DNA of 39,485 nt from a virus (Duplodnaviria; Heunggongvirae; Uroviricota; Caudoviricetes): the IMG/VR virus record IMGVR_UViG_2802429241_000009; one strand, given 5' to 3'. Positions 10,978-30,794 of this stretch are shown here, piece after piece. The notes beneath the pieces are model-generated. The model worked only from the letters and a program-made list of their open reading frames with translations. It did no database searches and was not told where the DNA came from. Each line of letters starts with the position of its first letter. Positions within the stretch are counted from its first letter, which is position 1. A program made the translations under genes and the position numbers.

Positions 10978-11308
10978 ATCAGCAGCAGAGCGCAAAGCCG
11001 CTCAGAGAGCCAGACAAGCTGCATCTGGTGTGCGTAAGCTGGAAATTGTGCTTGATGCTCAGGAAATTGAAATGCTGGAGCGTAACTGTGCTACGCGTCG
11101 CCCCGGGCGTGCGCCTTACGAATTTGGTGAGTATATAGCGTTACTGATCCGCCAGGATGATGCACGCGTGCACGGGCGTATAAAATCGATCAGCAGAAAA
11201 CGTTGCGGTAAGTGCGGCGAGAGAGTTCCAGTTAATTCATGCCCGTGTAATGGTGACTCGCAATGCTGGGTGACTAAAGGCTGGCATGAAACGAAATTAA
11301 TAGTGTGA
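10970..11308 (+). CDS. Putative DNA-binding regulator: N-terminal ribbon-helix-helix-like segment plus C-terminal Cys cluster; candidate late-gene regulator
   Basis: RKLEIVLDAQEIEMLER resembles an RHH strand-helix; C-terminal C-x2-C-x8-C-x-C-x5-C; last gene before the terminator and terminase genes. Confidence 0.45.
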   Translation: MAKSAAERKAAQRARQAASGVRKLEIVLDAQEIEMLERNCATRRPGRAPYEFGEYIALLIRQDDARVHGRIKSISRKRCGKCGERVPVNSCPCNGDSQCWVTKGWHETKLIV

Positions 11309-11357
11309 CATGTTACGAGTAGATTATGCATGATGAATTTGATGGGTTTTGAATACT

Positions 11358-11384
11358 GCCGCCAACTATGGCGGCTTTATTTTG
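11358..11384 (+). terminator. Intrinsic terminator immediately upstream of the terminase small subunit gene
   Basis: GCCGCC-AACTAT-GGCGGC followed by TTTATTTTG. Confidence 0.65.
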
Positions 11385-11387
11385 CAT

Positions 11388-11419
11388 GGTACTATTACCA
11401 CAACGGTAACTATTACCAC
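11388..11419 (+). repeat. Tandem direct repeat GGTA(A)CTATTACCAC x2 between the terminator and the terminase small subunit start
   Basis: 14/15-bp units at 11388..11401 and 11405..11419; each contains the TTACC half-site, and the second forms GGTAA-CTA-TTACC. Confidence 0.5.
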
Positions 11420-11426
11420 GGTGGTT

Positions 11427-12023
11427 ATGATGCCTGCTGAACCTAAAACCTATAAACGCAAATCAACGCAATTTAAGCCGCTCACAGCAATGCAGGAGGC
11501 TTATTGCCAGTCATACATCAAAACGCCTGAAAACCAGACTCAGGCAGCGATTAACGCAGGATTCTCCCCAAATACAGCGGCAGTTAAAGCCAGTGTCATG
11601 ATGCGCGATGAACGCATTCAAAAACGGATTGCCGAGTTGATGGAGGAGCGCAACAAACGAATGCGCGTCAGTGCTGATTACGTTCTCATGCGCCTGGTGG
11701 AGATCGACCAGATGGACGTGATCGATATCCTCAACGACGATGGGAGCCTTAAACCAATCCGTGAGTGGCCGAAAATCTGGCGCACTACGCTTAGTGGCTT
11801 TGATCTGTCATCGACCATCATGAACATGAACGAGGATTCGATAGAGACAATCCTCAAAAAAATTAAATGGCCTGACAAGGTGAAGAACCTCGAACTGATT
11901 GGTAAGCACGTCGACGTCAACGCATTCAAAGAACGCCTGGATGTTAATGTGAATGTGACAATTGCTGATCGCATAGCGGCAGCCAGGAAGCGACTCAAAG
12001 AACGTCAGGATGGTAATCAGTGA
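11427..12023 (+). CDS. Terminase small subunit
   Basis: Immediately upstream of and overlapping the large terminase gene; start at ATG-ATG after GGTGG (upstream TTG start would cross a terminator hairpin). Confidence 0.65.
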   Translation: MMPAEPKTYKRKSTQFKPLTAMQEAYCQSYIKTPENQTQAAINAGFSPNTAAVKASVMMRDERIQKRIAELMEERNKRMRVSADYVLMRLVEIDQMDVIDILNDDGSLKPIREWPKIWRTTLSGFDLSSTIMNMNEDSIETILKKIKWPDKVKNLELIGKHVDVNAFKERLDVNVNVTIADRIAAARKRLKERQDGNQ

Positions 12024-13495
12024 CAGATACAGCGTTATCTCCTGAAGAGCAGTTGATCGAGGATATTGCAGGGTTCACTCACGATCCGCTTGGCTATGCC
12101 CTCTATGCGTTCCCGTGGGGGGAAGAGGGGACTGAATTAGCACATGCCACCGGTCCACGTCAGTGGCAGGCTGATGCGTTCCGAGAGATACGTGATCACC
12201 TGCAGAATCCAGAGACGCGCTATCAGCCGCTTATGCTGGCACGCGCTTCGGGTCACGGTATTGGTAAATCCGCATTCATCTCAATGCTGATCAACTGGGG
12301 CATGTCCACTTGCGAGGATTGTAAGGTCGTGGTGACCGCCAACACCGACAACCAGCTACGAACGAAGACCTGGCCGGAAATTATCAAGTGGTCGAACCTT
12401 GCTATCACGAAAGACTGGTTTACCTGTACCGCTACCGCGATGTACAGCAATGACCCTGGGCACGACAAGCGGTGGCGAGCTGACGCAATCCCCTGGTCTG
12501 AGCACAACACTGAGGCATTCGCCGGACTACACAACGAGCGCAAACGCATCATCGTGGTATTCGACGAAGCATCCAACATTGCCGATCTGGTGTGGGAGGT
12601 AGCAGAGGGTGCGCTGACGGACGAAGACACTGAGATTATCTGGGTGGCATTCGGAAACCCTACACGTAACACCGGGCGTTTCCGCGAATGTTTCCGCAAA
12701 TATAAACACCGCTGGAAAACTGCGCAGATTGACAGCCGGACGGTGGAAGGCACTAACAAACAGCAGTTGCAGAAATGGGTTGATGACTACGGGGAAGACA
12801 GCGACTTCGTTAAAATCCGTGTGCGCGGCATATTCCCGGATGCATCTGAATTGCAGTTTATCCCTACCGGCCTTACTGACGAGGCAATGAAACGGGTGGT
12901 AACCGCTGCGCAGGTTGCACATGCTCCGGTGATAATCGGCGTTGACCCGGCATACTCCGGCGTTGATGACGCTGTGATATACCTGCGGCAGGGGCTGCAC
13001 AGTAAGGTGCTGTGGACTGGCAACAAGACCACTGACGATCTGATTATGGCGAAGCGTATCGCTGACTTTGAAGACCAGTACCAGGCTGACGCGGTATTCA
13101 TCGACTTCGGTTACGGTACCGGTCTGAAGTCAATCGGTGACGGCTGGGGGCGTACATGGCAACTTGTTCCGTTCGGCGGTGCGTCCACTGACCCGCAGAT
13201 GCTTAACAAGCGTGGGGAGATGTTCAACTCATGTAAGACATGGCTGAGGCTGGGCGGCATGCTGGATGACCAGGAAACAGCGGACGACCTGTCGGCGGCA
13301 GAGTACAAAGTTCGCGTGGACGGTAAAATCGTTATCGAACCGAAGGAAGATATCAAGGAGCGGCTTGGGCGTTCTCCTGGTAAAGGCGATGCGCTATTGC
13401 TGACGTTTGCTTTCCCGGTGTCGAAGCGCCTGCGACTTCCCGGGCAGCAGAACCAGCAAGGCAAGGCCATTACAGATTACGATCCCTATGCTTAA
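12020..13495 (+). CDS. Terminase large subunit
   Basis: 491 aa; Walker A-like ARASGHGIGKS; position upstream of portal. Confidence 0.9.
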   Translation: MTDTALSPEEQLIEDIAGFTHDPLGYALYAFPWGEEGTELAHATGPRQWQADAFREIRDHLQNPETRYQPLMLARASGHGIGKSAFISMLINWGMSTCEDCKVVVTANTDNQLRTKTWPEIIKWSNLAITKDWFTCTATAMYSNDPGHDKRWRADAIPWSEHNTEAFAGLHNERKRIIVVFDEASNIADLVWEVAEGALTDEDTEIIWVAFGNPTRNTGRFRECFRKYKHRWKTAQIDSRTVEGTNKQQLQKWVDDYGEDSDFVKIRVRGIFPDASELQFIPTGLTDEAMKRVVTAAQVAHAPVIIGVDPAYSGVDDAVIYLRQGLHSKVLWTGNKTTDDLIMAKRIADFEDQYQADAVFIDFGYGTGLKSIGDGWGRTWQLVPFGGASTDPQMLNKRGEMFNSCKTWLRLGGMLDDQETADDLSAAEYKVRVDGKIVIEPKEDIKERLGRSPGKGDALLLTFAFPVSKRLRLPGQQNQQGKAITDYDPYA

Positions 13496-13623
13496 TCCGC
13501 TGGAGGGGATAATGACGAAGATATCCTCTGGCGAGGATAAAGCAAATCCAGTCTATGAGCTGGCTGTTTGTGACATGTCACGACATCAAAATGCATCGAA
13601 TTCGTATTTCATGATTCACAGCT

Positions 13624-13648
13624 TAAAAAAATGCCCGGCGAACCGGGC
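13624..13648 (-). terminator. Intrinsic terminator on the minus strand downstream of the tRNA gene
   Basis: Minus-strand hairpin GCCCGG-TTCG-CCGGGC followed by ATTTTTTT. Confidence 0.65.
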
Positions 13649-13811
13649 GAACTGGAAGCGATGAGTTATGCCTTCCGTGGCTGTACGGGTTTACAGCATG
13701 AAGTCATCGCAATGGCGTCCTGCTGTAAAAAGGGTGGTGATAGTCCTTCAAGGGAAACCATCACCGCCAAGCACCTGGAACTTCTGGCATCACGGTCCTT
13801 AGGCGTGATTC

Positions 13812-13888
13812 TGGCGTGGCATGCAGGATTCGAACCTGCGACCAACCGCTTAGAAGGCGGTTGCTCTGTCCGACTGAGCTAATGCCAC
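13812..13888 (-). tRNA. tRNA-Arg (anticodon UCU), phage-borne
   Basis: 77 nt with full cloverleaf: 7-bp acceptor GTGGCAT/ATGCCAC, D-stem GCTC/GAGC, anticodon stem ACCGC/GCGGT with loop CTTCTAA, T-arm GCAGG-TTCGAAT-CCTGC, encoded CCA; close to E. coli argU as recalled. Confidence 0.85.
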
Positions 13889-14210
13889 AACGCTGAGAGC
13901 ACTTAGCCTGTTAAGGCACCACACTTTGTTGCGGCTCCATAAATGCTCTCATCGTTGTACCCTCGTCTCTTCCGAGGCGTCACACCGAATCGCCAGGATG
14001 GTGAATCCCCGTGCGCGGAATAAAACCGCTCGACTTGCACATTCCGGCTACCTGGTTCGTTTGCCCGAGCAAGGGAGGGTGCCCCTTAAACGTATCCAGA
14101 CCGCTATCGTCGCATGTGCCATACGCCGTACTGCTCAAAATAAAAGCTCACTCCACCTGTTCAATTTAACGACAAGCCAGTCAGGTTAGTAACCGGAATG
14201 AACTTTTTGG

Positions 14211-14225
14211 TTACCTTAAAGGTAA
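14211..14225. promoter_or_regulatory. Operator-like palindrome TTACC-N5-GGTAA upstream of the portal-proximal genes
   Basis: Exact; in the noncoding region between the tRNA and the structural genes. Confidence 0.5.
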
Positions 14226-14315
14226 TAATTCGTGCGTTAAATGTCAACCATCTACGATAAATAAATCATATGTGGTTAAATTGGTAATAATTTAATTGCG
14301 TACGGAGTCATTGAT

Positions 14316-14522
14316 ATGTGCATGGGTAGCTCACCATCAGTGCCTGCAACACCAGAAGTTCAGGCAGCACCACAGGAGCAGGATGCCGCCGTTGTTGATG
14401 CCCGCGACGAAGAAACACGTCGCCGTCGCGCTGCTGCTGGTCGTAGTTCTACGCTGCTTACCGGTTCTCAGGGCGACACATCAACCGCTAATACCAGCGG
14501 TAAAACGCTGCTTGGTCAGTAA
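14316..14522 (+). CDS. Hypothetical small protein (68 aa) upstream of portal
   Basis: GGAG SD; shares a 12-bp initiation-region repeat with the portal gene; Ala/Pro/Arg-rich. Confidence 0.35.
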   Translation: MCMGSSPSVPATPEVQAAPQEQDAAVVDARDEETRRRRAAAGRSSTLLTGSQGDTSTANTSGKTLLGQ

Positions 14523-14536
14523 CCGGAGTCATTGAA

Positions 14537-16216
14537 ATGGCGGAAACAACTAAAGAGCGATTGAACAAACAGTTCGCACAACTTGAAAGCGAGCGTCAGT
14601 CGTTCGAGCCGCACTGGCGCGAGTTGAGTGATTACATCAACCCGCGTGGTTCCCGCTTTCTGACTTCTGAGGTCAACCGTAACGATAGACGCAATACACG
14701 AATTATTGATTCGACCGGGACTATGGCGGCGCGCACTCTCGCCAGCGGCATGATGTCAGGCATCACAAGCCCCGCGCGTCCGTGGTTTCGCCTGGCTACG
14801 CCAGATCCTGAAATGATGGATTATGGCCCTGTTAAGTTGTGGCTTGAGGCGGTGCAGAACCGCATGAACGATATGTTCAATAAGTCGAATCTCTACCAGT
14901 CTCTTCCGCAGTTATACGGAAGCCTCGGCACATACAGCACTGGTGCAATGGCGGTACTGGAGGATGACGAGGACATCATTCGCACAATGCCATTCCCTAT
15001 AGGCAGTTACTACCTGGCTAACTCACCTCGTGGCAGTGTGGACACCTGTTTTCGCAAGTTCTCTATGACTGTTCGTCAGCTTGTTCAGGAGTTCGGGCTA
15101 AATAACGTCAGCGAATCCGTAAAAAGCATGTGGGAAAGCGGCACCTACGAGAAGTGGATTGAGGTGATGCATTCGGTTTACCCGAACATTGACCGCGATA
15201 CATCGAAGCTGGATAGCAAGAACAAGCCATTCAAATCGGTTTATTACGAGGTTGGCGGCGATAACGACAAGTTGTTGCGTGAGTCCGGATTCGATGAGTT
15301 TCCAATTATGGCTCCGCGCTGGGAAGTTAACGGCGAAGATGTTTATGGATCATCATGCCCGGGTATGCTGGCGCTTGGACCTGTTAAGGCATTGCAGCTT
15401 CTCCAGAAGCGTAAGTCGCAGTTGATTGATAAAGCCACCAATCCGCCGATGGTTGCTCCGACTTCCCTCAAGAATCAGCGCGCATCCCTTCTTCCTGGCG
15501 ACATCACGTATATCGATCAGATTACTGGTCAGGATGGTTTCAGGCCTGCTTATCTGGTTAACCCCAGTACAGCAGATCTGGTAGCAGACATTCAGGACAC
15601 TCGCCAAATCATTAACAGCGCCTACTTTGTCGATCTGTTCATGATGTTGCACAACATCAATACCCGCTCGATGCCTGTTGAAGCAGTGATCGAAATGAAA
15701 GAAGAAAAACTTCTAATGTTGGGGCCGGTTCTGGAGCGTCTGAACGACGAATGTCTTAATCCTCTCATTGACCGCGCTTTCTCGATGATGGTGCGTAAAA
15801 ACATGCTGCCGCCACCGCCTGACGCGATGGAAGGCATGCCCCTGAAGGTCGAATACATTTCCGTCATGGCTCAGGCGCAGAAGTCTATCGGCCTGTCCAG
15901 TCTGGCGTCCACGGTTAACTTCATTGGTCAACTTGCGCAAGCGAAACCAGAAGCTCTCGACAAACTCAACGTTGATCAGGCGATCGATGCATTCGCTGAT
16001 ATGTCCGGAGTGTCTCCAACCGTCATTGTTCCGCAGGAACAGGTTGAGCAGGCTCGCCAGCAACGGGCACAGCAGCAACAGCAGCAACAAATGATGGCGA
16101 TGGGGATGGCGGCGGCACAGGGTGCCAAGACGCTAAGCGAAGCTAAAACTTCGGAGCCGAGTGTTTTGTCAGCCATGGCGAATGCAGTTAGTGGTCATGG
16201 TGGGCAATCACAATGA
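14537..16216 (+). CDS. Portal (head-to-tail connector) protein, T7 gp8-like
   Basis: 559 aa; Gln/Ala/Met-rich C-terminus resembles the T7 portal C-terminus as recalled; position after terminase and before scaffold and capsid. Confidence 0.75.
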   Translation: MAETTKERLNKQFAQLESERQSFEPHWRELSDYINPRGSRFLTSEVNRNDRRNTRIIDSTGTMAARTLASGMMSGITSPARPWFRLATPDPEMMDYGPVKLWLEAVQNRMNDMFNKSNLYQSLPQLYGSLGTYSTGAMAVLEDDEDIIRTMPFPIGSYYLANSPRGSVDTCFRKFSMTVRQLVQEFGLNNVSESVKSMWESGTYEKWIEVMHSVYPNIDRDTSKLDSKNKPFKSVYYEVGGDNDKLLRESGFDEFPIMAPRWEVNGEDVYGSSCPGMLALGPVKALQLLQKRKSQLIDKATNPPMVAPTSLKNQRASLLPGDITYIDQITGQDGFRPAYLVNPSTADLVADIQDTRQIINSAYFVDLFMMLHNINTRSMPVEAVIEMKEEKLLMLGPVLERLNDECLNPLIDRAFSMMVRKNMLPPPPDAMEGMPLKVEYISVMAQAQKSIGLSSLASTVNFIGQLAQAKPEALDKLNVDQAIDAFADMSGVSPTVIVPQEQVEQARQQRAQQQQQQQMMAMGMAAAQGAKTLSEAKTSEPSVLSAMANAVSGHGGQSQ

Positions 16217-16509
16217 CAGATTACGAAGATGATCAACTGAAAGAAGAAAACGCCCGTAAGCAATGTGACATGGCACAGCGTGAAATTGATGACATTCGCT
16301 TTGTCATGAGCAGTGAACAGGGGCGTCGCGTTGTCTGGTCGGTGCTGGAGAAAGGCCGTGTGTTTTCCGCTATCTCACCGATGGACGCTATGGCAATGGC
16401 ATTTAATGAGGGGCAACGCAATCTGGCGCTGGAACTGTTTCAGCGCGTTATGGCGCATTGCCCTGAACAGTATTTGAAGATGGCCAAAGAGGCCAGTGAA
16501 CAGGAGTGA
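16213..16509 (+). CDS. Hypothetical protein (98 aa)
   Basis: ORF overlapping the portal stop (ATGA). Confidence 0.5.
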   Translation: MTDYEDDQLKEENARKQCDMAQREIDDIRFVMSSEQGRRVVWSVLEKGRVFSAISPMDAMAMAFNEGQRNLALELFQRVMAHCPEQYLKMAKEASEQE

Positions 16510-16511
16510 TC

Positions 16512-17207
16512 ATGAATTTATTTGAGCGTTTGCTGTATCGCCGTCTTTGCAATGAGCAACCAGTCGATGGTGGAGCAGCTCCGGCTGCGTCAGAACCGTC
16601 AGCGCCTGCAGGTGATACCCCTGCTCCAGTTGGTGATCCATCACAACAGGAAGGTGATAAGCCACAACCTGTTGCTGATGGCGATAAACCTGCTGATGAC
16701 AAAAAGCCTGAAAACGATAAGCAGGATGGAAAAAAGGGCGGCGATAAACCAGAGGGTGCGCCTGAGAAGTACGAGTTTCAGGCTGCCGAAGGCGTAGATC
16801 TGGATACAGAAGCGTTGAAGGAATTCGAGCCGGTGGCGCGAGAACTTAACCTGACCAACGAGCAAGCGCAAAAGCTGGTTGATGCTTATCCGAAGATTCT
16901 GGCAGGTGTTCAGCAGCGCCAGGCAGAAGCCTGGCAGAAAACAACCGAGCAGTGGGCTGCGGATGTAAAAGCTGACAAAGAAATCGGTGGCGACAAGTTG
17001 ATTTCTAACCTTAGCGTCGCACAGCGTGCGCTTGACCAGTTCGGGACACCTGAACTCAAAGAATATCTGAACACCACCGGGCTGGGTAATCACCCTGATC
17101 TGGTCAAAACGTTCGTGAAAATCGGAAAGGCGATGTCTGAAGATGGCATGGTCACCGGTGGTAATGAAGGCCAGCGTAGTGCGGCCGAAGTGCTCTATGG
17201 CAAATAA
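16512..17207 (+). CDS. Scaffolding protein candidate
   Basis: Acidic, Pro/Ala/Asp/Lys-rich low-complexity N-terminus; between portal and capsid genes. Confidence 0.6.
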   Translation: MNLFERLLYRRLCNEQPVDGGAAPAASEPSAPAGDTPAPVGDPSQQEGDKPQPVADGDKPADDKKPENDKQDGKKGGDKPEGAPEKYEFQAAEGVDLDTEALKEFEPVARELNLTNEQAQKLVDAYPKILAGVQQRQAEAWQKTTEQWAADVKADKEIGGDKLISNLSVAQRALDQFGTPELKEYLNTTGLGNHPDLVKTFVKIGKAMSEDGMVTGGNEGQRSAAEVLYGK

Positions 17208-17215
17208 GAGAGGAA

Positions 17216-18208
17216 ATGACAATGGCTGTTAAAGGCTTAACTGCGCTAACGCTGGCTGACTGGGGTAAGCGCGTCGATCCAAACGGGAAAGTCGATAAGA
17301 TTATCGAGCTTCTCGGTCAAACTAACCCGATCCTTCAGGATATGCCTTTTGTCGAAGGGAACCTTCCTACCGGACACCGAACCACCATTCGTTCTGGTTT
17401 ACCTTCAGCTACCTGGCGTTTGCTGAACTATGGCGTACAGCCAAGCAAATCAACCACAGTGCAGGTAACCGATTCCGTTGGCATGCTGGAAACCTATGCT
17501 GAAGTCGATAAGTCACTGGCAGATCTGAACGGCAATACCGCCGAATTCCGCCTGTCTGAAGACCGCGCATTTATTGAAGCGATGAATCAGCAGATGGCGC
17601 AGACGCTGTTTTATGGTGATTCCAGCGTTAACCCTCAGCAATTTATGGGACTGTCCTCCCGCTATTCCAGCCTGTCTGCGGGTAATGCTCAGAACATCAT
17701 TGATGCTGGTGGCACGGGTACAGATAACACCTCAATCTGGTTAGTGGTGTGGGGCGAAAACACCGTGCATGGCATCTTCCCGAAAGGGCAGAAGGCTGGC
17801 ATCCAGATGGAAGATAAAGGCCAGGTGACACTGGAAGATGCTAATGGCGGCAAGTACGAAGGCTACCGTACCCATTACAAATGGGACAACGGACTTGCTC
17901 TGCGTGACTGGCGTTATGTTGTGCGCATTGCAAACATCGATGTCAGCAATCTTTCAGAACCTTCCTCTGCCGCAAATATTGCGAAGTTGATGGTTAAAGC
18001 ACTGCATCGCATTCCAAACCGTGGCATGGGTCGCCCGGTGTTCTACATGAACCGCACTGTAGGCCAGGCTCTTGATCTGCAGTCTCTGGAGAAAACATCT
18101 CTGGCTATCAGCGTAAAAGAGACAGAAGGCGAGTGGTGGACTTCATTCCGTGGTGTACCAATCCGTGAAACTGATGCGCTTCTGGAAACAGAAGCCCGCG
18201 TGGTGTAA
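17216..18208 (+). CDS. Major capsid protein candidate
   Basis: 330-aa ORF immediately after the scaffold gene; strong SD; position-based call. Confidence 0.7.
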   Translation: MTMAVKGLTALTLADWGKRVDPNGKVDKIIELLGQTNPILQDMPFVEGNLPTGHRTTIRSGLPSATWRLLNYGVQPSKSTTVQVTDSVGMLETYAEVDKSLADLNGNTAEFRLSEDRAFIEAMNQQMAQTLFYGDSSVNPQQFMGLSSRYSSLSAGNAQNIIDAGGTGTDNTSIWLVVWGENTVHGIFPKGQKAGIQMEDKGQVTLEDANGGKYEGYRTHYKWDNGLALRDWRYVVRIANIDVSNLSEPSSAANIAKLMVKALHRIPNRGMGRPVFYMNRTVGQALDLQSLEKTSLAISVKETEGEWWTSFRGVPIRETDALLETEARVV

Positions 18209-18259
18209 CGCCTGTTATTAACCTGTGGGTCGTAACAGACCCACTAATGGAGAAAGAAG

Positions 18260-18697
18260 ATGATCACCGACAAACTGTTGATGTTCTCCGAAGCACAGGC
18301 GGTAACTGATACCGCGGCTTCTACTGACGTAATCGATCTCGGTCCAATTGATGGAAACCATCGCGATATCGGCGTGGGTTACCCGCTTGAGTTTTGGGTG
18401 CTGGTTAACGCAGCCGCCGCGGCAAGCGGTGATGCAACTGTAAACATCCAGTTGCAGACGAGTGAGAATAACAGCTCATGGACCACTATTTATGATAGTG
18501 GCGCACTGGCAAAGACCGCCCTGACAGCAGGTAAACGAGTTGTTTCTGCAAAGGTGCCTGCCGGTGTTCAGCGATATCTGCGTGTTAACTACTCCGTCGC
18601 AACTGGCCCACTAACGGCTGGCGAATTCACTGCTGGTATCAGTCTTGATGTTGATGCCAATACGCCGTATCCGATCCGCTCAAAAGTAACTGGTTAA
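18260..18697 (+). CDS. Hypothetical virion protein (possible capsid decoration)
   Basis: 145 aa directly downstream of the capsid gene. Confidence 0.45.
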   Translation: MITDKLLMFSEAQAVTDTAASTDVIDLGPIDGNHRDIGVGYPLEFWVLVNAAAAASGDATVNIQLQTSENNSSWTTIYDSGALAKTALTAGKRVVSAKVPAGVQRYLRVNYSVATGPLTAGEFTAGISLDVDANTPYPIRSKVTG

Positions 18698-18707
18698 GGT
18701 GATATCG

Positions 18708-19043
18708 ATGTCAGGTGAGAAACCAAGATACCGCGTTCTGCGCCTCTCTCATATCCATAACACACTGTGGCCTGAGGGGGCAGAAATCGAATACGAAGGT
18801 GAGCCTGGTAGCGCACTGGAACCTGTTAACGATGCAGCCAGACAGGCAAAAGCAAAAGTTGCAGGAAAGGTGTCAATGGCAACAACCAGCACCAAAATCA
18901 TCAACGATGTGTCAGATGATGGTGAACTGGATAAGCTCCGTGAAGAGTACGAATTGCTCTTTAACGAGAAGCCACACCATAACGCCAAAGCCGAAACGCT
19001 CCGCGAGAAGATCGCAGATAAGCGTAAAGAACTGGGCGTGTAA
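18708..19043 (+). CDS. Hypothetical protein
   Basis: ATG after GGTG; followed by an intrinsic terminator. Confidence 0.45.
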   Translation: MSGEKPRYRVLRLSHIHNTLWPEGAEIEYEGEPGSALEPVNDAARQAKAKVAGKVSMATTSTKIINDVSDDGELDKLREEYELLFNEKPHHNAKAETLREKIADKRKELGV

Positions 19044-22493: not shown

Positions 22494-22957
22494 TGATCGA
22501 TGTTCAAATTATTCCCGCTACCGAAGAGCATCTTCAGATGATTTTGCCGGATGTTCGTCAGGCTGATATTGACGAACTGTATGCGGTATCGCTGATGACT
22601 ACCGAAGATGCGCTGCGCGTTGGTCTTCGCACTGCGACTATGGCCTGGTCAGGGTTCGCGAACGGAGAACTGGTAACCATGTTTGGTGTATCTCCGGCGT
22701 CAATGATCGGTGGCAATGGTACGCCCTGGCTGGTAGGAACCAGCCGTATTGAAAAATATCAGAAGACATTTCTGCGCCACTGCCGCCCTGTATTGCAGCA
22801 GATGCTGGCAGTTTATCCGCGCCTGGAAAACTACGTCGACGAGCGAAACCATGTTGCCAAAGCATGGCTGCACTGGCTTGGATTCAGGCTTGAAGAAGCC
22901 GCGCCTTATGGTGCTCTTGGTCTTAATTTCCACAGATTTCACATGGAGAGAAAATAA
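22493..22957 (+). CDS. Internal virion protein (T7 gp13-like position)
   Basis: 154 aa; ATGA overlap with the upstream gene. Confidence 0.45.
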   Translation: MIDVQIIPATEEHLQMILPDVRQADIDELYAVSLMTTEDALRVGLRTATMAWSGFANGELVTMFGVSPASMIGGNGTPWLVGTSRIEKYQKTFLRHCRPVLQQMLAVYPRLENYVDERNHVAKAWLHWLGFRLEEAAPYGALGLNFHRFHMERK

Positions 22958-23502
22958 TGTGCGATCCGGTTATTGCTGGTGGCGCAATGCTCGCCATGAG
23001 TGGCATTCAGGCATACACCCAGTACCAACAGGGAAAGTATGCCTCGAAGGTTGCAGAAGCGAACGCAGATATAGCCACAGCTCAGGCAAATGATGCAATA
23101 AACAGAGGTAACGCTGAAGCTGAGCAACGACGCAGAGAGACCCGACAGCGGCTTGGTACACAGGCGGCGACAATGGGGGCTACCGGCGCTGATTTATCTA
23201 CAGGTAACGCGCTGGATATATTTGGCGACACTGCCCAGTTTGGCGCTCTTGATTCGCTGACGACGGTGAATAACGCGCAACGCGAGGCTTACGGTTATCA
23301 GGTTCAGGCTGCCAACTATAAAGCAGAAGCCAGTTCAGCCCGTAAACAGGGGAATGTGGGAGCAGCAACAACATTGCTCACTGCGCCTCTGAAGGCATAC
23401 GGTGCGTACCAGATGTTTGGTGGGACGTGGAGTCCGTTTACTCAAAGCACTCCTGCGCCAATCGGGGCAGCAGCAGGAACCAGATTACCCGGAGGATTAT
23501 AA
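22957..23502 (+). CDS. Internal virion protein B-like (T7 gp14-like position)
   Basis: 181 aa, Ala/Gln-rich; gene order. Confidence 0.45.
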   Translation: MCDPVIAGGAMLAMSGIQAYTQYQQGKYASKVAEANADIATAQANDAINRGNAEAEQRRRETRQRLGTQAATMGATGADLSTGNALDIFGDTAQFGALDSLTTVNNAQREAYGYQVQAANYKAEASSARKQGNVGAATTLLTAPLKAYGAYQMFGGTWSPFTQSTPAPIGAAAGTRLPGGL

Positions 23503-26015
23503 TGCCAGTCGTACCAACAGTATCCGGACGTCAGGTTGAGAGTCGTGGAGTTCAGTCAGCAGGCTTGCAGACGTTTTCTCAGCAAGGTATTGGTGATGCT
23601 TTTGTTCGGGCAGGGACAGAGGCAATTGATGTTTTGGGGCAGGCAAAACAGCGTGCCAATATCGCTCTGGCTCAGGAGGCATCTCTTAACCTCAGTCAGA
23701 TAAGCAGCGATCTGCTGAATAATCCTGAAACAGGATTGCTTAACCTGAAAGGGAAAAATGCTATTGAAAAAGGCCATGAGTATACGCAGCAGTTTGATGC
23801 TCAGGTCGAACAACTGGCTATGTCGCTGCCGGATGAACAGGCTCGTAATGCTTTCATGCAGCAGGCGCAGCAGCAGCGCATTCAGTTCACTACGCAGGCC
23901 GGGCGACACGAGATAGGGCAAATTAATGCCTACGAAGAAGGCCAGTTTCAGGCGACACTGCTGAACAATGGTAAAAATGCCGCAGCATTGTATGGCGACA
24001 ACGCCGCATACGTATTGGCTAACAAGCAAACTTTCCAGCAAATTGAGGAGTACGGTGTTGCACATGGCTGGAGCGACGAGCAAATCCAGGCCAAGAAAAT
24101 CGAGTTTAAAGAGAAGGTTGCTGATGCCGCATTGTCCCAGTGGTCGGCAAACAATGCGACCGCATTCATCCAAAGTAATGGCGAGTTAAGTGATACTGCT
24201 GCTGGAGCTCGCCGTGCTGTAGCAGATAGTGACTCTTCCGAGCGTGCCCGTGGCATACGCAACAATAACCCAGGAAATCTCGAATACAGCAAAACTAATC
24301 CGTGGGTAGGCCAGACCGGTGATGATGGTCGATTTGCTAAATTCGAAACACCTGAACACGGGATTCGTGCATTAGGGCGGAACCTGATGTCGTATCAGAG
24401 GCAGGGTATTGATACCGTCAGCGAGATAATTAATCGCTGGGCACCGCCTACTGATAAAAATGACACTATGTCGTATATCAAAGCAGTGTGCGAACAACTT
24501 GGCGTTTCTGCTGATGAGCCTCTCGATGCATCTAATCCTGATACCCTGAAGGCGCTTTGTGCAGCCATTATCCATCATGAGAACGGTAGCCAGCCATACA
24601 GTGATCAGCAGTTAACTGCTGGTGTCAGTGCAGCACTTGGTTTATCAACAATTCCAACCAACACCAAACGCTATACCGGTAATGCAGCATTCGATGCGGC
24701 ATCTCCTGAGGCGCAGGCAAGTTTTATGCGACAGGCGGATCAACTGCGTCGGCAGCAGCAGGCTGAATATAAAACGATGATTGACAGCCAGGTTCGCGAT
24801 GCGACAGCTGCGTATATGCGTGGCGTTGAATTTCCTAACCCACCTGGTGAGGCTGATTTTATTGCAGCTTATGGAGTCAGAGAAGGAAACCTGCGATATA
24901 CCGAGTTCAGAAATACGCAAATCGCCGGACAGTATATAGGCTCTTTCCGCAACATGCCGACAAGCAGCATTACAGCATATGTTGAGCAATTACGCCCGGA
25001 TACTGGTGAGACAGGGGAGGGTTATGCGGCACGAGCCGCTCTTTATGACAACGTTGTGTCGGCTGCAAGTCAGGTGATAAAGCAGCGACAGGCTGATCCT
25101 GTACAGTTCTCTCTTGCCGCCGGACAGGCAAAGCCTATCGACATGAGCAATAAGGATAACTTTGGACAGAGCGTTGCCTTGCGTGCTGCTCAGGTCAGTG
25201 ACATTGCTAAGTCATATGGCACTCCACTGACGTTCTTTTCCAAAGATGAGGCCAATCAGATCGGTGTTTTCTTTCGTGATGCGCCCGTTTCCCAACAGGC
25301 AGCATATCTCGATACCATCAGGCAGAGCACTGGTGGTGGGCAGGTGTATATGTCAGCACTACAGCAGATCAGTGCCAACGCTCCATCTGCTGCCGTTGCC
25401 GGGATACTGATGGATAAGCCAGGTGGTATTTTGGCAGAAAAAAACTGGTTTAATCCGGATGTTTCCGTGTCTCCTGAAACCGCTGCGCAGACAATTCTTG
25501 CTGGCGCGGCGGCTCGTAAAGGTACTGATGACGCGAAAGGTATTCCGATGCCTAAAGATGCTGATCTTCGCCTTGAGTTTTCTGACATGGTGAAGGATGC
25601 ATTTGCTGGTGACGCTCAGGGGGCATCAATGGCATACGAGATCGCAAAGGATTATTACGCTGGTGTGATGGCGAAAAAAGGCGTGGTATCAGGCGAAATT
25701 GACAATGATGTCTGGAAACAGGCTGTTAACGTAGCTACAGGTGGCGTGCATGACTATAACGGAATGGGGAATGTCCTTTTGCCGTGGGGAATGTCTGCAG
25801 AGCAATTCGATAAGCAGGTTAATCAGGCTTGGAATGAACAAGTTGTCGGCTCCGGGATAAAAACACCGCCTGGTCAGTATGGTTTGCAAAGTTACGGCGA
25901 TAGTCAGTACCTGGTGAAACTTGGTACTGGTTATCTGCTGAAAGACGATGGTTCTCCCGTTGTTCTTAATCTGACACAGAAGCGTCAGAGATTCTCCGGA
26001 GATATTCCTCAATGA
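23502..26015 (+). CDS. Internal virion / ejection protein (T7 gp15-like position)
   Basis: 837 aa from the ATG after GGAGG (TAATG overlap with the upstream stop). Confidence 0.6.
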   Translation: MPVVPTVSGRQVESRGVQSAGLQTFSQQGIGDAFVRAGTEAIDVLGQAKQRANIALAQEASLNLSQISSDLLNNPETGLLNLKGKNAIEKGHEYTQQFDAQVEQLAMSLPDEQARNAFMQQAQQQRIQFTTQAGRHEIGQINAYEEGQFQATLLNNGKNAAALYGDNAAYVLANKQTFQQIEEYGVAHGWSDEQIQAKKIEFKEKVADAALSQWSANNATAFIQSNGELSDTAAGARRAVADSDSSERARGIRNNNPGNLEYSKTNPWVGQTGDDGRFAKFETPEHGIRALGRNLMSYQRQGIDTVSEIINRWAPPTDKNDTMSYIKAVCEQLGVSADEPLDASNPDTLKALCAAIIHHENGSQPYSDQQLTAGVSAALGLSTIPTNTKRYTGNAAFDAASPEAQASFMRQADQLRRQQQAEYKTMIDSQVRDATAAYMRGVEFPNPPGEADFIAAYGVREGNLRYTEFRNTQIAGQYIGSFRNMPTSSITAYVEQLRPDTGETGEGYAARAALYDNVVSAASQVIKQRQADPVQFSLAAGQAKPIDMSNKDNFGQSVALRAAQVSDIAKSYGTPLTFFSKDEANQIGVFFRDAPVSQQAAYLDTIRQSTGGGQVYMSALQQISANAPSAAVAGILMDKPGGILAEKNWFNPDVSVSPETAAQTILAGAAARKGTDDAKGIPMPKDADLRLEFSDMVKDAFAGDAQGASMAYEIAKDYYAGVMAKKGVVSGEIDNDVWKQAVNVATGGVHDYNGMGNVLLPWGMSAEQFDKQVNQAWNEQVVGSGIKTPPGQYGLQSYGDSQYLVKLGTGYLLKDDGSPVVLNLTQKRQRFSGDIPQ

Positions 26016-27814
26016 GTTACTTTGGCCTTAATCCAGTAAACCAGAATCAGCAGCTTGACGAAGCAGCATCAAATCCAGCTGGCTTTAACAGCGATGTTGG
26101 TTTTTTCGACAATGCTGTAGGAGCGGCATTGTCTGGTTTGTACTCCGGGCTGGTGGCAAAGCCAGATCAGTTGCTATGGGCAGGGATGGATAAAATCGTA
26201 TCCCCGATTGCTCAGTTTGTTAACGAAAACACCTCGCTCAATGACACTTCAGTTTCATACATTGCTGAGCAGAGAAAACTAGCAGAGCAGCAGGTTAAGC
26301 GGCTGACGCCTGATGCCGCGACAACCGGAACCGCCGGGCAGGTTCTTTATGGGTTGTTCGATATGGGCGGGCAGGCTGTTGTCGGTACAACGCTCGGTGG
26401 TCCTGTCGGAGGTGCAGCGGCGGTAACTTCGCTACAGGGTTTTTCTGAGTTTGAACGGCTGACAGCACAGGGTGTTGATTTCAGGACGGCGCAGGAAGCG
26501 GGATTAGTGCAGGGCATTACTGCTGGTGCCGGAACACTGATCCCTATGAGCCTCGGGTTACGTGCTGGTGGTGCGCTGGCGGAAGGTGTGGCGGCTCAGC
26601 TTGCGCGGACGGGTGAGAGTTCAGTGCGACGCGCCGCAGCAACAGCAGTACGTGCAACGCCAGATATTGCCTATGCCGCAGGTACAAATATTGCGTTCGG
26701 TATGGCACAGCGTGGGCTTACTGCAAAAACGCTTCGTGATGGTGGCTATAGCGAAATGGCTAACCAGTATGATGTGTTGGATCGACAGGCAATTGCTATT
26801 GATGCTGTTCTTGGGGTGGCGTTTGGTGGTGTCGGCAGATTTATTAACTCTCGCGGCGAGTCTACAAGCGCACCAAATTTTTCACCAGTTGATATCGATG
26901 CTGCACTGGCGGCGAATGCCGCTCATCATGCTGAAATTGATATTGCTCCCGGCGTTCCGATCAACGTGCTTTCGCGTAATTCGCACATTCAGGCTCTGCG
27001 AAAAGCCATGTCTGATGTTAGCCAGGGGAGACCTGTAGACGTTGCCAGCATTGTTGAGTCTGCATCTTTCAGTGAAATTCCTGGGCGCAAGAGTCTGCTG
27101 TCTCAGGCAGTTAATGAGGCTCTGTCATCTGTAGATGATGGAGTAACGGCGCGCGCTATAGAAAATCGGTTGCTTGAAGAACAGGCCGCGCAGCTTTTGC
27201 CGCGTGGCGATAGACAGGTTTACCAGTCTGAAATCGCTAATAGCCAACGAATTATTGAAAATCTCACTGAACAGCGCGCACAAATTCTTGCAGAAGAGCC
27301 AACCGGTAGCGGTAAGGCTTTATCTCGTGCTCGATCAGATAAACAGGCCAGACTTCGCGATATTGACCAACGAATCCGGCAGGCACAAGAACGCCTGGAA
27401 TTTTCTCGTAACGCGTTTGCACCGCATGAGCCTGGCGGTCAGTTTTTTGAAGCTCGAGCAGAACTGGCTCGGAGACAGCAGGCAGAAAGTGAACTTAATG
27501 CTCAGGCTGTTTCATTCTATAAAACAGCAGAGGTCAGGACGCCAGACGAAGTAGCTCCTTTTGAGCCTGATAAAATATTGCAACAGGCAGAACAAAAAAT
27601 GATGTCAGATCAGGCAGGAGATATTGATCTGCGCATAGCTGAAGACTCGCTGCTTGAATCACCTGACATGATAATCACCGTGCTGGATGATGATGGTAAT
27701 CCACAATCGCGCAGTGCGCGTGAAGTACTGGATGAAGCGAACAGGGAAAGTGAGCAGGCAATACAGGATTCCAGCCTGTTTGATGTCGCTGTGGCGTGTT
27801 TCTTGAGAGGTTAA
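26012..27814 (+). CDS. Internal virion / ejection protein
   Basis: 600 aa; ATGA overlap with the upstream gene. Confidence 0.55.
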   Translation: MSYFGLNPVNQNQQLDEAASNPAGFNSDVGFFDNAVGAALSGLYSGLVAKPDQLLWAGMDKIVSPIAQFVNENTSLNDTSVSYIAEQRKLAEQQVKRLTPDAATTGTAGQVLYGLFDMGGQAVVGTTLGGPVGGAAAVTSLQGFSEFERLTAQGVDFRTAQEAGLVQGITAGAGTLIPMSLGLRAGGALAEGVAAQLARTGESSVRRAAATAVRATPDIAYAAGTNIAFGMAQRGLTAKTLRDGGYSEMANQYDVLDRQAIAIDAVLGVAFGGVGRFINSRGESTSAPNFSPVDIDAALAANAAHHAEIDIAPGVPINVLSRNSHIQALRKAMSDVSQGRPVDVASIVESASFSEIPGRKSLLSQAVNEALSSVDDGVTARAIENRLLEEQAAQLLPRGDRQVYQSEIANSQRIIENLTEQRAQILAEEPTGSGKALSRARSDKQARLRDIDQRIRQAQERLEFSRNAFAPHEPGGQFFEARAELARRQQAESELNAQAVSFYKTAEVRTPDEVAPFEPDKILQQAEQKMMSDQAGDIDLRIAEDSLLESPDMIITVLDDDGNPQSRSAREVLDEANRESEQAIQDSSLFDVAVACFLRG

Positions 27815-27819
27815 ATTAA

Positions 27820-30294
27820 ATGAGACAGGAATGTATACAAGCGGTCCAGCAGGCGGCGCAGCGCACGTTAACGGCGCGAGAAATACAGAACATTGAAGAC
27901 CGCATTTATCGCAATATGCGCTCCATTGCTCGTGATGACCCTATGTCGTGGCGACAACTTTCCGAGTCAGAGCGGCTGTATCGTGCAGCACAATTGGCAT
28001 CTGAAGAATTACAGCGAGAAGCGGCATTAAAGAAACGTCGTGTGGCTCTCACTATAGCCGCACGTCAGAGATTGGATAAATTTATCAATAGCTATCAAGG
28101 GGCTGATGGGAAACTTGGCGCTCTTAACCGTACTATTGCTTTTAATGCAGACGGTAAATCGAATTTCCTCTCTGTTGAGTCCAGAACAAAAGCCACTCGT
28201 GATTATGCATTGAGTCAATTGCAGGAGGCATTCGAAGCAGTTGATCCTCGCTTTTTTGGCCTGTTTGAAGATGAAGCGGGCGTGCGTGACCTGGTATATG
28301 AAATGCGAGGGCAAAATACTGGCAATGCTAAAGCAAGAAAAGGTGCTAAGGCGTGGAGAGAAGTGACAGATCTACTCCGCCGCCGGTTTAATGATGCTGG
28401 TGGGGACATTGGCTATCTCGAAAACTGGGGGATCCCTCAACATCATTCTATGGAAAAGGTTGGGGCGGTATCAAAGGATAAGTGGGTTAGCGATGTTATA
28501 GGTAAGCTGGATCGCAAATATTATATCCGAGCCGATGGACAACTGATGAATGATGCCGAGTTGTCTGCATTTCTTGGAGAGGCTTATAACACGATCGCTA
28601 CTGGTGGGCTGAATAAGCTTACTGATACCGGAATGCGAATTTCCGGCGCACGTGCTAACCGTGGTAATGCATCACGACAGATACATTTCAAAGATGCAGA
28701 TTCCTATCTCCAATATCAACAACTTTATGGCGATCGCTCTCTATGGGAAATCATGGTCGGTCACCTGGAAGGGATCAGTAAAGATATTGCTCTGGTGGAA
28801 ACATATGGCCCAAACCCCGATCATGTTTTCCGTTCCCTTCTTGATCAGGTGAAGGCTGAAACGGCAACAGCTAACCCGAGTAAAACCGGTAGCGTTGAGC
28901 GGCTGGCGAACAAAACAGAGAACCTGTACAACTTTATTTCCGGAAAGACACAGCCTGTAGCTAATCCGCACATCGCGCGATGGTCTGACAATATCCGCAA
29001 CTGGCTGGTTGCCAGCAGACTCGGATCCGCGTTGCTGTCATCGTTCTCTGATCTTGGAACCATGTATCTGTCTGCGAAGGTTACCAACCTTCCAATGAAC
29101 CAGTTATTCCGCAACCAGCTTGAAGCTATGGACCCAACGAACCGTACTGAGCTTGCGCGGGCGCGCCGAGCTGGTCTGGCGATGGAATCTCTACTTGGCA
29201 GCGTTAACCGCTGGGCGATGGATAATATGGGGCCGTCTGTGTCTCGTTGGGCGGCAACGGCGGTAATGCGTGCCAGTGGGCTTACAGCATGGTCAGATGC
29301 GCACAAGCGCGCCTATGGCGTAACTATGATGGGAAGCCTGGGAGAAGTAGTGTCACGGACACCAGACCTTCGTAGCCTCGATGACTCTGATTTTCGTATC
29401 CTGAAAAGCAAAGGGATTACTGACACAGACTGGAGCGTATGGAAGCTGGCGCAACAGGAGGACTGGGGGAACGGTAATAATACGATGCTGACACCGGAAA
29501 GCATTATGCGTATCCCTGATTCAGCAGTTAAACATCTTGGTGAGCCTGAACGTGTGAAATTTGAGGCAATGCGTAAACTGCTCGGTGCCGTAACTGAAGA
29601 AGTTGATATGGCTGTTATTACACCGGGCGCACGTGAACAGATGTTCGTAGGGTCTGGTCTTCAGCGTGGAACATGGAAAGGTGAATTAACGAGAAGTGTT
29701 TTCCTGTTTAAATCGTTCCCTATCTCGGTAGTTATGCGTCACTGGCATAGAGCTATGGGGATGCCGTCTGCTGGTGGGCGTGCGGCATATATAGCAACGT
29801 TTTTAGCAAGCACAACCATGCTTGGTGCTCTTTCCATGCAGATTACTGATCTTATTAATGGGAGAAATCCAAAAGAAATGACCGGTGACAACATGGTTAA
29901 ATTCTGGATAAATGCATTTTTAAAAGGTGGTGGGGCAGGGTTGTATGGTGATTTTCTTTTCTCTGACCACACCAGGTACGGGAGCGGCGCACTAGCGTCG
30001 ATGCTTGGCCCGGTAGCTGGTCTGGTTGATGACGTAGTGAAGATTGCTCAGGGCATACCGTTAAATGCTGTGGAAGGGAAGAATGAGCAGACTGGTGGTG
30101 ATCTGGTTAAGCTTGGGAAAGGTTTGATGCCTGGTGCGAATCTCTGGTACTTGAAGGCGGCTCTCGATCACATGATCTTTAACCAGATGCAGGAGTATTT
30201 TTCACCAGGCTATTTGCGTAAAATGGAGCAACGTTCGAAGAAAGAGTTTAATCAGACATACTGGTGGCGACCTCAGGATGTCACTCCGCAATAA
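27820..30294 (+). CDS. Internal virion / ejection protein (T7 gp16-like position)
   Basis: 824 aa; GAGAGG SD. Confidence 0.55.
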   Translation: MRQECIQAVQQAAQRTLTAREIQNIEDRIYRNMRSIARDDPMSWRQLSESERLYRAAQLASEELQREAALKKRRVALTIAARQRLDKFINSYQGADGKLGALNRTIAFNADGKSNFLSVESRTKATRDYALSQLQEAFEAVDPRFFGLFEDEAGVRDLVYEMRGQNTGNAKARKGAKAWREVTDLLRRRFNDAGGDIGYLENWGIPQHHSMEKVGAVSKDKWVSDVIGKLDRKYYIRADGQLMNDAELSAFLGEAYNTIATGGLNKLTDTGMRISGARANRGNASRQIHFKDADSYLQYQQLYGDRSLWEIMVGHLEGISKDIALVETYGPNPDHVFRSLLDQVKAETATANPSKTGSVERLANKTENLYNFISGKTQPVANPHIARWSDNIRNWLVASRLGSALLSSFSDLGTMYLSAKVTNLPMNQLFRNQLEAMDPTNRTELARARRAGLAMESLLGSVNRWAMDNMGPSVSRWAATAVMRASGLTAWSDAHKRAYGVTMMGSLGEVVSRTPDLRSLDDSDFRILKSKGITDTDWSVWKLAQQEDWGNGNNTMLTPESIMRIPDSAVKHLGEPERVKFEAMRKLLGAVTEEVDMAVITPGAREQMFVGSGLQRGTWKGELTRSVFLFKSFPISVVMRHWHRAMGMPSAGGRAAYIATFLASTTMLGALSMQITDLINGRNPKEMTGDNMVKFWINAFLKGGGAGLYGDFLFSDHTRYGSGALASMLGPVAGLVDDVVKIAQGIPLNAVEGKNEQTGGDLVKLGKGLMPGANLWYLKAALDHMIFNQMQEYFSPGYLRKMEQRSKKEFNQTYWWRPQDVTPQ

Positions 30295-30303
30295 GGAAGT
30301 GTT

Positions 30304-30477
30304 GTGTTTTTAATTATTTTGAGTGTGATAATTTCTGGTGGGTTGTTATTTATTGACCGCTACAAATATTTTCTTAACCCTCAGACTCAAGCTATTTGCT
30401 GGTTCATCTTTGTTGTGCAGGGAATAGTTCTTGTTGCAAGCCTTATTGAGGGGAGGCCTCTGATTTTTACTGGGTAA
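30304..30477 (+). CDS. Small hydrophobic membrane protein (57 aa, two predicted TM segments)
   Basis: Not in the ORF track; GTG start after AAGGAAG; VFLIILSVIISGGLLFI and ICWFIFVVQGIVLVASLI hydrophobic stretches. Confidence 0.3.
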   Translation: MFLIILSVIISGGLLFIDRYKYFLNPQTQAICWFIFVVQGIVLVASLIEGRPLIFTG

Positions 30478-30489
30478 ATAGGTGACTAC

Positions 30490-30786
30490 ATGCAAGCGAT
30501 AGGATTCATTGTTTATATCGTCGTTGGCCTTTTTCAGTTGGCAGCAATTATGGCTGGGCTTGAATCAAGGTGGGGATTGCACTGGATAATTGCAGCCCCC
30601 ATTGCTTTCATCGTGAGCTATATTCCATTTGTTGGAGCGATTGTTGGTATGGTTGGTGCTGTGGATGTATGGCGGTGGGAGTGGTGGCAGGCTGGCCTTC
30701 TCTTCTTTGGTGGGATCATCTTTGCTATTGTCTGCGGTGGAATGTCATCATTTTTCGAACGGCTATCATTCAGAAAAGGAACGTGA
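30490..30786 (+). CDS. Small integral membrane protein (98 aa, about 3 TM segments)
   Basis: Strongly hydrophobic ORF; GGTGA SD; followed by a hairpin plus T-run terminator. Confidence 0.5.
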   Translation: MQAIGFIVYIVVGLFQLAAIMAGLESRWGLHWIIAAPIAFIVSYIPFVGAIVGMVGAVDVWRWEWWQAGLLFFGGIIFAIVCGGMSSFFERLSFRKGT

Positions 30787-30794
30787 CATGTCAC

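What the first reader, a model, noticed from the sequence alone, without database searches (positions are those of the whole stretch)
11305..30794. 12-bp palindrome GTGACATGT(C/T)AC at three sites
GTGACATGTCAC occurs at 13570..13581 and 30783..30794, and GTGACATGTTAC at 11305..11316. Two copies coincide with the stop codon of a gene immediately before an intrinsic terminator (11306..11308 and 30784..30786); the third lies in the noncoding stretch after the terminase genes. Three near-identical 12-bp palindromes are unlikely by chance. Possible roles are a regulator binding site, a restriction/modification target, or a recombination or packaging signal.
Basis: seen in the sequence. Interest (0 to 1): 0.45.

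Follow-up and report, generated by a model that had tools for sequence, protein, structure and literature searches.

The report
Conserved operator palindrome of phage regulator
The 12-bp palindrome is real and is most likely the docking site of a small, uncharacterised phage DNA-binding protein whose own gene ends inside one copy; protein and site travel together through many unrelated phages, and the site looks like the host's chromosome-organising matS site with one central base removed.

Summary
GTGACATGTCAC lies at 13570 and 30783, and GTGACATGTTAC at 11305; shuffled sequence gives none. The window is an epsilon15/phiV10-like podophage. The three sites are kept (about 99% invariant) in relatives down to about 80% identity, while DNA on one side of each site is swapped among 3-5 unrelated cassettes starting within 0-3 nt of the motif. 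The gene whose stop codon lies in site 1 (10970-11308, PHROG 536, no Pfam model) is predicted with high confidence to have a ribbon-helix-helix DNA-binding fold plus a zinc knuckle. Its homologs occur in unrelated myo-, P2-like, N15-like, Vibrio and other phages. There the general motif GTGAC-NN-GTCAC recurs, in five lineages again on the homolog's stop codon. Ten family-encoding genomes hold 24 such sites (0.4 expected); 274 kb of control phage and E. coli DNA hold none. The best explanation is that the palindrome is this protein's operator, and mosaic joints at the sites are a by-product. The half-sites equal host matS (GTGAC-RNY-GTCAC) with a 2-bp instead of a 3-bp centre. Homology to MatP is unproven. 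Binding and regulatory output are inferred, not shown.

The parts
10970..11308 (+). Gene for the candidate binding protein (112 aa; epsilon15 gp49 / phiV10 p55 / N15 gp46 family; PHROG 536). It has a basic N-terminal arm, a ribbon-helix-helix core and a C-terminal Cys cluster. Its TGA stop (11306-11308) lies inside site 1.
11305..11316 (.). Site 1: GTGACATGTTAC, a one-mismatch copy of the palindrome (rare C>T variant).
   Evidence: Perfect palindrome at the same place in epsilon15, SPN1S, BUCT711, TL-2011b and in nearly all of the 79 IMG/VR loci, only two of which share the window's T variant.
11317..11357 (+). Remnant spacer between site 1 and the terminator. It keeps the last ~20 nt of a ~70-aa gene that is intact in 23 of 80 relatives.
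11358..11383 (+). Intrinsic terminator (GCCGCCaactatGGCGGC plus T-run) ending the early-right operon, upstream of the small terminase gene.
13548..13563 (.). Weakened hairpin left of site 2. In phiV10 it is a clean bidirectional terminator (GCCAGCtcatcGGCTGGC).
13570..13581 (.). Site 2: exact palindrome, 74 nt after the large terminase gene. Its left flank is constant; its right flank is one of at least 5 unrelated cassettes in relatives.
13582..13625 (.). Scar of a deleted reverse-strand cassette gene (phiV10 p03 / epsilon15 p50, present in relatives).
30783..30794 (.). Site 3: exact palindrome overlapping the TGA stop of ORF 30490-30786. Its right flank (terminator) is constant; its left flank is one of at least 4 unrelated gene ends in relatives.
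30795..30822 (+). Intrinsic terminator (AGGCCGCtttcGCGGCCT plus T-run) abutting site 3.
38133..38144 (.). Decayed fourth position (ATAGCATGGCAT) on the Rz stop codon. SPN1S has GTGACATGTCAT and epsilon15 has GTGACATGGCAT at this place.

Best explanation
The palindrome is the cognate DNA site (operator) of the phage's own small ribbon-helix-helix/zinc-knuckle protein, encoded at 10970-11308. The general recognition sequence is GTGAC-NN-GTCAC. Inferred mechanism: one protein dimer sits on the dyad. Its two-stranded beta-ribbon lies in the major groove and its conserved basic N-terminal arm (R8, K9, Q12, R13) reaches the outer bases, so the symmetric GTGAC half-sites are read while the central 2 bp are not contacted and are free to vary. 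One site sits on the protein's own stop codon, so gene and site move as a unit. The further sites lie at operon ends next to terminators in this genus. In other lineages they lie just upstream of ribosome-binding sites or of a promoter. The most likely output, held with much lower confidence (about 0.35), is repression or roadblock/insulation of transcription leaving the early operon and at operon boundaries. Because the site is the only sequence kept under selection in otherwise fast-changing intergenic DNA, it has also become the preferred joint for cassette exchange. Shown here: the motif is non-random, conserved, tied to the gene family and specific in its spacing, and the protein has a predicted RHH fold. 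Inferred: actual binding, stoichiometry and regulatory sign.
Against: No binding experiment exists. The RHH assignment rests on a predicted monomer model; sequence profiles do not reach significance for any RHH Pfam model and Foldseek finds nothing. The putative base-contacting beta-strand residues are not strongly conserved in the family alignment, although the half-site is. Three family-encoding contexts show no exact site (Aeromonas phage, the P0150 P2-like prophage, and the short P0220 contig). In this genus the sites sit at 3' ends of operons rather than at promoters, which is unusual for a classical operator. Some sites lie inside coding regions (ZF40, the repA of N15-like phages, BUCT711). 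The 160 IMG/VR loci are close relatives and not independent, so the lineage count (about 9 of 12) is the real sample size.
Confidence: 0.7

Rival explanations
1. The sites are primarily recombination signals: boundary or linker sequences, or targets of a site-specific system, that mediate exchange of gene cassettes (morons).
For: Every site is an exact mosaic joint: site 2 has one left and at least 5 right flank classes, site 3 has at least 4 left and one right, and site 1 has 3 right classes. Alignments with TL-2011b and EC.W1-9 begin at the motif.
Against: No recombinase or nuclease gene co-occurs consistently. The motif tracks an RHH protein, which is not a catalytic fold. Sites also occur inside conserved coding sequence (repA of three N15-like phages, ZF40 gp08 and gp12), where no cassette boundary exists. 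Any conserved functional site in variable DNA will become a joint through short-homology recombination.
Confidence: 0.1
2. The sites are bound by a host factor, most obviously MatP, because they carry matS half-sites. The phage would use or decoy the host Ter-organising system.
For: matS is GTGAC[AG]N[TC]GTCAC, with E. coli consensus GTGACATTGTCAC, so the phage motif is that sequence minus one central base. The family is restricted to phages of Enterobacterales, Vibrio and Aeromonas, which are MatP-bearing taxa (from memory).
Against: The spacing differs by 1 bp, and the two classes are cleanly separated: 100 kb of Ter DNA has 5 N3 and 0 N2 sites, while the phages have 24 N2 and 1 N3. Sites track the presence of the phage gene, not the host: Salmonella phage ST-35 has none. 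True matS is avoided in prophages.
Confidence: 0.07
3. The motif acts in RNA, as a small hairpin in 3' or 5' untranslated regions that modulates termination, RNA stability or translation of the next gene.
For: In this genus the order is always gene end, then palindrome, then terminator in the direction of the variable gene. In other lineages the motif lies 9-19 nt before a start codon.
Against: The hairpin is only 4 bp with a 4-nt loop, -1.2 kcal/mol, no better than shuffles. Half-site sequence is invariant across very distant phages, with no compensatory substitutions. Some sites lie in coding regions, or upstream of a promoter where they would not be transcribed in the relevant sense.
Confidence: 0.07
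4. The motif is a restriction/modification target or a packaging (pac) signal.
For: It is a palindrome, and two copies flank the terminase genes. The phiV10 record starts inside site 1.
Against: The phiV10 start is simply the base after the last gene's stop codon. There are three or more dispersed copies. The central bases vary between lineages. TerL-related phages without the RHH gene lack the motif. In N15, P2-like and ZF40 phages the sites are far from the terminase genes.
Confidence: 0.02

Closest known systems
MatP / matS (E. coli Ter macrodomain organiser)
   Same: The half-sites are identical (GTGAC...GTCAC). The binding protein contains a ribbon-helix-helix. There are a few dispersed sites per replicon rather than clustered operators. 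The taxonomic range overlaps (enterobacteria, Vibrio).
Ribbon-helix-helix repressor/operator pairs (P22 Arc and Mnt, CopG, MetJ, type II antitoxins such as MazE, ParD, TacA)
   Same: Small dimeric beta-alpha-alpha protein; short symmetric DNA site; a site adjacent to the regulator's own gene.
   Different: It has an extra C-terminal Cys cluster. The site lies at the 3' end (stop codon) of the gene rather than in its promoter. There are single 12-bp sites rather than tandem arrays. No partner toxin gene is present.
Boundary or linker sequences at mosaic junctions of lambdoid phages, and promoter-stem-loop cassettes of T4-type phages (recalled from memory)
   Same: Short conserved sequences located exactly where unrelated gene cassettes are joined.
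   Different: Here the conserved sequence is tied to a specific DNA-binding protein family and also recurs in genomes of unrelated architecture.
Lambda Q and its binding element just downstream of gene Q (recalled from memory)
   Same: A regulator gene at the end of the early operon with its DNA site immediately after it, followed by a terminator and then the late genes (site 1 layout).
   Different: There is no sequence or fold similarity to Q proteins. A promoter overlapping site 1 is not conserved. ZF40 and N15-like phages carry a separate Q gene.
DksA/TraR-type zinc-finger proteins
   Same: Weak profile match of residues 49-110 to TraR and YbiI (E about 0.02).
   Different: No Pfam zf-dskA_traR hit in any of 57 members. 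Only three Cys are well conserved. No structural hit.

Membership tests
Ribbon-helix-helix (MetJ/Arc/CopG) DNA-binding superfamily | beta-strand / helix / helix core fold | tested here: met
Ribbon-helix-helix (MetJ/Arc/CopG) DNA-binding superfamily | Significant match to an RHH sequence profile | tested here: not met
   Only 5 of 57 members give sub-threshold hits to RHH_5, RepB-RCR_reg or RHH_1 (best E 0.013). The window protein gives none.
Ribbon-helix-helix (MetJ/Arc/CopG) DNA-binding superfamily | Dimer whose paired beta-strands bind a symmetric or repeated DNA site | not testable with these tools
   Only a monomer could be modelled. Binding is inferred from co-occurrence of gene and motif.
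MatP/matS system | 13-bp site GTGACRNYGTCAC | tested here: not met
   All phage sites have a 2-bp centre. There are 24 N2 against 1 N3 in family-encoding genomes, while E. coli Ter DNA shows the reverse, 0 N2 and 5 N3.
MatP/matS system | MatP domains (Pfam PF06303 and PF17414, which the MatP proteins carry) | tested here: not met
   No MatP Pfam hit in 57 members. hhalign against E. coli MatP gives E=0.15, probability 0.4%. The predicted C-terminus is a Cys cluster plus a short helix. A profile-profile test against diverse MatP could not be built.
MatP/matS system | Sites confined to the host terminus macrodomain | tested here: not met
   The sites are on phage genomes of many types, and true matS is reported absent from prophages.
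DksA/TraR C4 zinc-finger family | CxxC-N17-CxxC four-cysteine finger matching PF01258 | tested here: not met
   C79 and C82 are invariant and C99 nearly so, but the fourth Cys varies in position. There is no PF01258 hit. The only support is a weak PDB profile hit, E 0.02.
Intrinsic terminator (motif as part of the terminator) | Stable GC-rich hairpin followed by a T-run | tested here: not met
   The palindrome alone folds to -1.2 kcal/mol with z about 0. The adjacent terminators are separate hairpins.
Type II restriction/modification target | Fixed recognition sequence matched to an enzyme encoded by phage or host | not tested
   No enzyme database was available. Indirectly unlikely, because the central bases differ between lineages and the motif tracks the RHH gene.

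The most novel reading that the evidence does not exclude
The protein and its GTGAC-N2-GTCAC sites form a phage-borne counterpart of the host MatP/matS system. It would be a private 'address code', one base out of register with matS, that lets the phage mark, bridge or insulate its own DNA, or interfere with MatP, MukBEF or divisome functions, without being read by host MatP. It could be either a diverged mini-MatP or a convergent invention.
Probability: 0.12. Interest if true: 0.85.

Novelty: new variant of a known kind. Interest (0 to 1): 0.62.

Why it matters
It pairs an uncharacterised but widespread phage gene family (152 clusters at 50% identity, no Pfam or NCBIfam model) with a precise, testable DNA target. 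That gives a first handle on regulation in epsilon15/phiV10-type phages, which are used for Salmonella and E. coli O157 typing and reporter phages, and in N15-like phage-plasmids. In N15-like phages the sites fall at the antirepressor promoter and inside repA. It also gives a clean example of how a selected protein-binding site becomes the seam at which phage gene cassettes are exchanged. The one-base offset from matS raises a directly testable question: do phages keep a binding code deliberately out of register with a host chromosome-organising system?

Tried and rejected
- **phiV10 record start inside site 1 as a physical genome end:** rejected. The record was simply opened after the last gene's stop codon.
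- **Site 1 as a sigma-70 promoter (GTGACA-18-CATGAT):** not conserved in the 23 relatives that carry an extra gene there.
- **Leftward promoter from site 3:** I checked the alternative flanks by eye and the -10 elements are not conserved.
- **Conserved two-gene module (regulator plus downstream small gene):** the downstream genes are unrelated across lineages.
- **MatP homology:** profile-versus-sequence comparison was not significant. The MatP homolog search returned only near-identical sequences, so no profile-profile test was possible. The MatP-matS structure paper was not available.
- **Diverse seeding with the search for related loci:** it failed twice with diverse alignments, and closer queries returned near-identical loci. 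Divergent contexts came instead from the look-up of encoding contigs.
- **Literature:** searches for the motif, the protein family or matS-like phage sites found nothing.
- **epsilon15 'repressor' sites as TTACC-N6-GGTAA:** my spacing guess was wrong. The repeats read TTACC-N5-GGTAA and are a different element.
Full report
**Observation**

The pattern GTGACATGTYAC occurs at 11305 (T variant), 13570 and 30783, and never in 100 dinucleotide-preserving shuffles. One further one-mismatch copy (16265, GTGACATGGCAC) lies inside a coding region. It has no counterpart within 2 mismatches in epsilon15, SPN1S, BUCT711 or ZF40, and its number is as expected by chance, about 1.2. The stop codons of ORFs 10967-11308 and 30490-30786 are the TGA inside the palindrome. 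An intrinsic terminator abuts site 3. Another lies 41 nt after site 1.

**What the window is**

The window is a phiV10/epsilon15-type temperate podophage (Uetakevirus), 97-99% identical over the terminase region to E. coli O157 typing phages 9 and 10 and phiV10. Site 1 ends the last gene of the early-right operon, just before the terminase genes. Site 2 follows the large terminase gene. Site 3 ends the long structural operon.

**Conservation and mosaicism**

- epsilon15 and SPN1S, only about 80% identical, have exact palindromes at all three positions. BUCT711 has two of the three plus two other copies, and TL-2011b has two of the three.
- SPN1S has a fourth copy with one mismatch on the Rz stop codon. 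That position has decayed in the window, at 38133-38144.
- In 160 related IMG/VR loci the motif is 99% invariant. On one side of each site the sequence falls to 63-83% agreement and splits into 3-5 unrelated classes that begin within 0-3 nt of the motif.
- At site 2 the window has lost a reverse-strand gene that phiV10 and epsilon15 carry there.
- At site 1 the window has lost a ~70-aa gene that 23 of 80 relatives carry between the palindrome and the terminator.
- In this genus the order is always variable-gene end, then palindrome, then terminator, read in the direction of the variable gene.

**The linked protein**

The gene ending in site 1 encodes a 112-aa protein (PHROG 536, 'transcriptional regulator') with no Pfam or NCBIfam model.

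- The family is small, with 152 clusters at 50% identity.
- Its architecture is conserved: a basic N-terminal arm (R8, R13 nearly invariant), a strand-helix-helix core, and a Cys cluster (C79 and C82 invariant, C99 nearly so).
- AlphaFold2 gives pLDDT 91.5.
- Foldseek and Pfam add nothing significant.
- A weak TraR/YbiI profile hit (E 0.02) was not reinforced by any other search.

**Co-occurrence test**

Homologs exist in phages of quite different architecture. The results by lineage:

| Lineage | Identity to window protein | GTGAC-NN-GTCAC sites |
|---|---|---|
| Myovirus ZF40 | 66% | Three exact TGTGACATGTCACA; one lies 2 nt after the homolog's stop |
| P2-like Yersinia phage | 42% | GTGACGCGTCAC on the stop codon |
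| phiKO2 and N15 | about 37% for phiKO2 | GTGACTGGTCAC on the stop; further copies inside repA and, in N15, 24 bp upstream of the antirepressor-operon promoter |
| P0208 and P0213 contexts | 35% and 30% | Again on the stop codon |
| Vibrio phage K303 | 31% | Three sites; two lie exactly 19 nt before start codons, one of them the small terminase |
| P0183 context | 34% | A tandem pair between convergent genes |
| Aeromonas phage, one P2-like prophage (P0150), one 3.9-kb contig (P0220) | 30-39% | No exact site |

In total, ten distinct family-encoding genomes carry 24 N2 sites against 0.39 expected (Poisson 2e-34), and only one N3 site. No N1 or N4 sites occur in any of the 15 genomes scanned. 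Four TerL-related control phages without the gene, plus 107 kb of E. coli, carry no N2 site. The half-sites never change, the centre does, and no compensatory changes are seen. As RNA the palindrome is a marginal hairpin, -1.2 kcal/mol with z about 0.

**Interpretation**

The most economical reading is that GTGAC-NN-GTCAC is the operator of this RHH/zinc-knuckle protein, bound by a dimer on the dyad. Gene and site form a portable unit because one site lies on the gene's own stop codon.

Binding itself, the stoichiometry and the regulatory sign are inferences. Given the positions of the sites, I favour repression or roadblock/insulation of transcription, though with low confidence. Those positions are operon ends beside terminators in this genus, just upstream of ribosome-binding sites or a promoter elsewhere, and the regulator as the last early gene.

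The mosaic joints are best seen as a consequence. The site is the only conserved sequence in otherwise fluid intergenic DNA, so short-homology recombination resolves there.

**Comparison with known systems**

The half-sites are those of matS, the 13-bp MatP site GTGAC[AG]N[TC]GTCAC, whose E. coli consensus is GTGACATTGTCAC. The phage motif is that consensus minus one central base.

In my sample the two codes are cleanly separate. E. coli Ter DNA has 5 N3 and 0 N2 sites per 100 kb, while the phages have 24 N2 and 1 N3. Bobay et al. report that true matS is absent from prophages.

**Novelty and verdict**

I found no description of the motif or the protein family in the searchable literature. In kind this is an RHH regulator with a palindromic operator, so it is a new variant of a known kind. 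Its unusual features are the zinc knuckle, the site on the regulator's own stop codon, its dispersal across unrelated phage types, and its matS-like half-sites.

- Confidence that the palindrome is this protein's binding site: about 0.7.
- Confidence in any particular regulatory output: about 0.35 or less.

Noticed in passing
window 13582-13625: Scar of a precise deletion of a reverse-strand gene (phiV10 p03 / epsilon15 p50, Sf6 gp66-like) that sits right of site 2 in relatives. Relatives carry at least five different cassettes at this spot.
   Followed up: partly
window 11317-11357: Only the last ~20 nt remain of a ~70-aa gene (MPKIRYDLEDMRDN...) that 23 of 80 related loci carry between site 1 and the terminator.
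   Followed up: partly
window 38133-38144: Decayed fourth copy of the motif (ATAGCATGGCAT) on the Rz stop codon. SPN1S keeps GTGACATGTCAT and epsilon15 keeps GTGACATGGCAT there, which suggests an ancestral site at the end of the lysis operon.
   Followed up: partly
window 13812-13888 (- strand): tRNA-Arg (anticodon TCT) between the terminase and portal genes, preceded on the minus strand by a strong terminator (13633-13648).
   Followed up: no
window 11390-11420: Tandem TTACC-N5-GGTAA inverted repeats just upstream of the small terminase gene. They correspond to the sites annotated as 'repressor' binding sites in the epsilon15 record and are a different element from the palindrome studied here.
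   Followed up: no
L264 (N15) 33237; L171 (phiKO2) 2390; L254 5092: The same 12-mer (GTGACCAGTCAC on the coding strand) lies about 610-620 nt into the repA gene in three N15-like phage-plasmids. This hints at control of replication-gene expression or another function inside the coding sequence.
   Followed up: partly
L259 12475 and 12498: Two exact GTGACGCGTCAC sites with starts 23 bp apart (11-bp gap) between convergent genes, after a Bro-N gene. This is the only tandem arrangement seen.
   Followed up: no
L007 (Klebsiella phage BUCT711) 26462 and 23066: An exact palindrome and a GTGACGTGTCAC variant inside structural genes (an internal-virion-protein homolog and the adjacent large structural gene). 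They are not present at these places in the E. coli or Salmonella relatives.
   Followed up: no
window 30800-33640, compared with L004, L005, L008: The region right of site 3 is a hot spot for accessory genes. The window has a small membrane protein and a DUF4760 protein on the minus strand. Relatives carry a YafO toxin, a Bro-N protein or an Arc/Ant antirepressor module.
   Followed up: no
L172 (Vibrio phage K303): This genome contains the only 13-bp (N3, matS-spacing) GTGACnnnGTCAC site found in any family-encoding phage examined.
   Followed up: no
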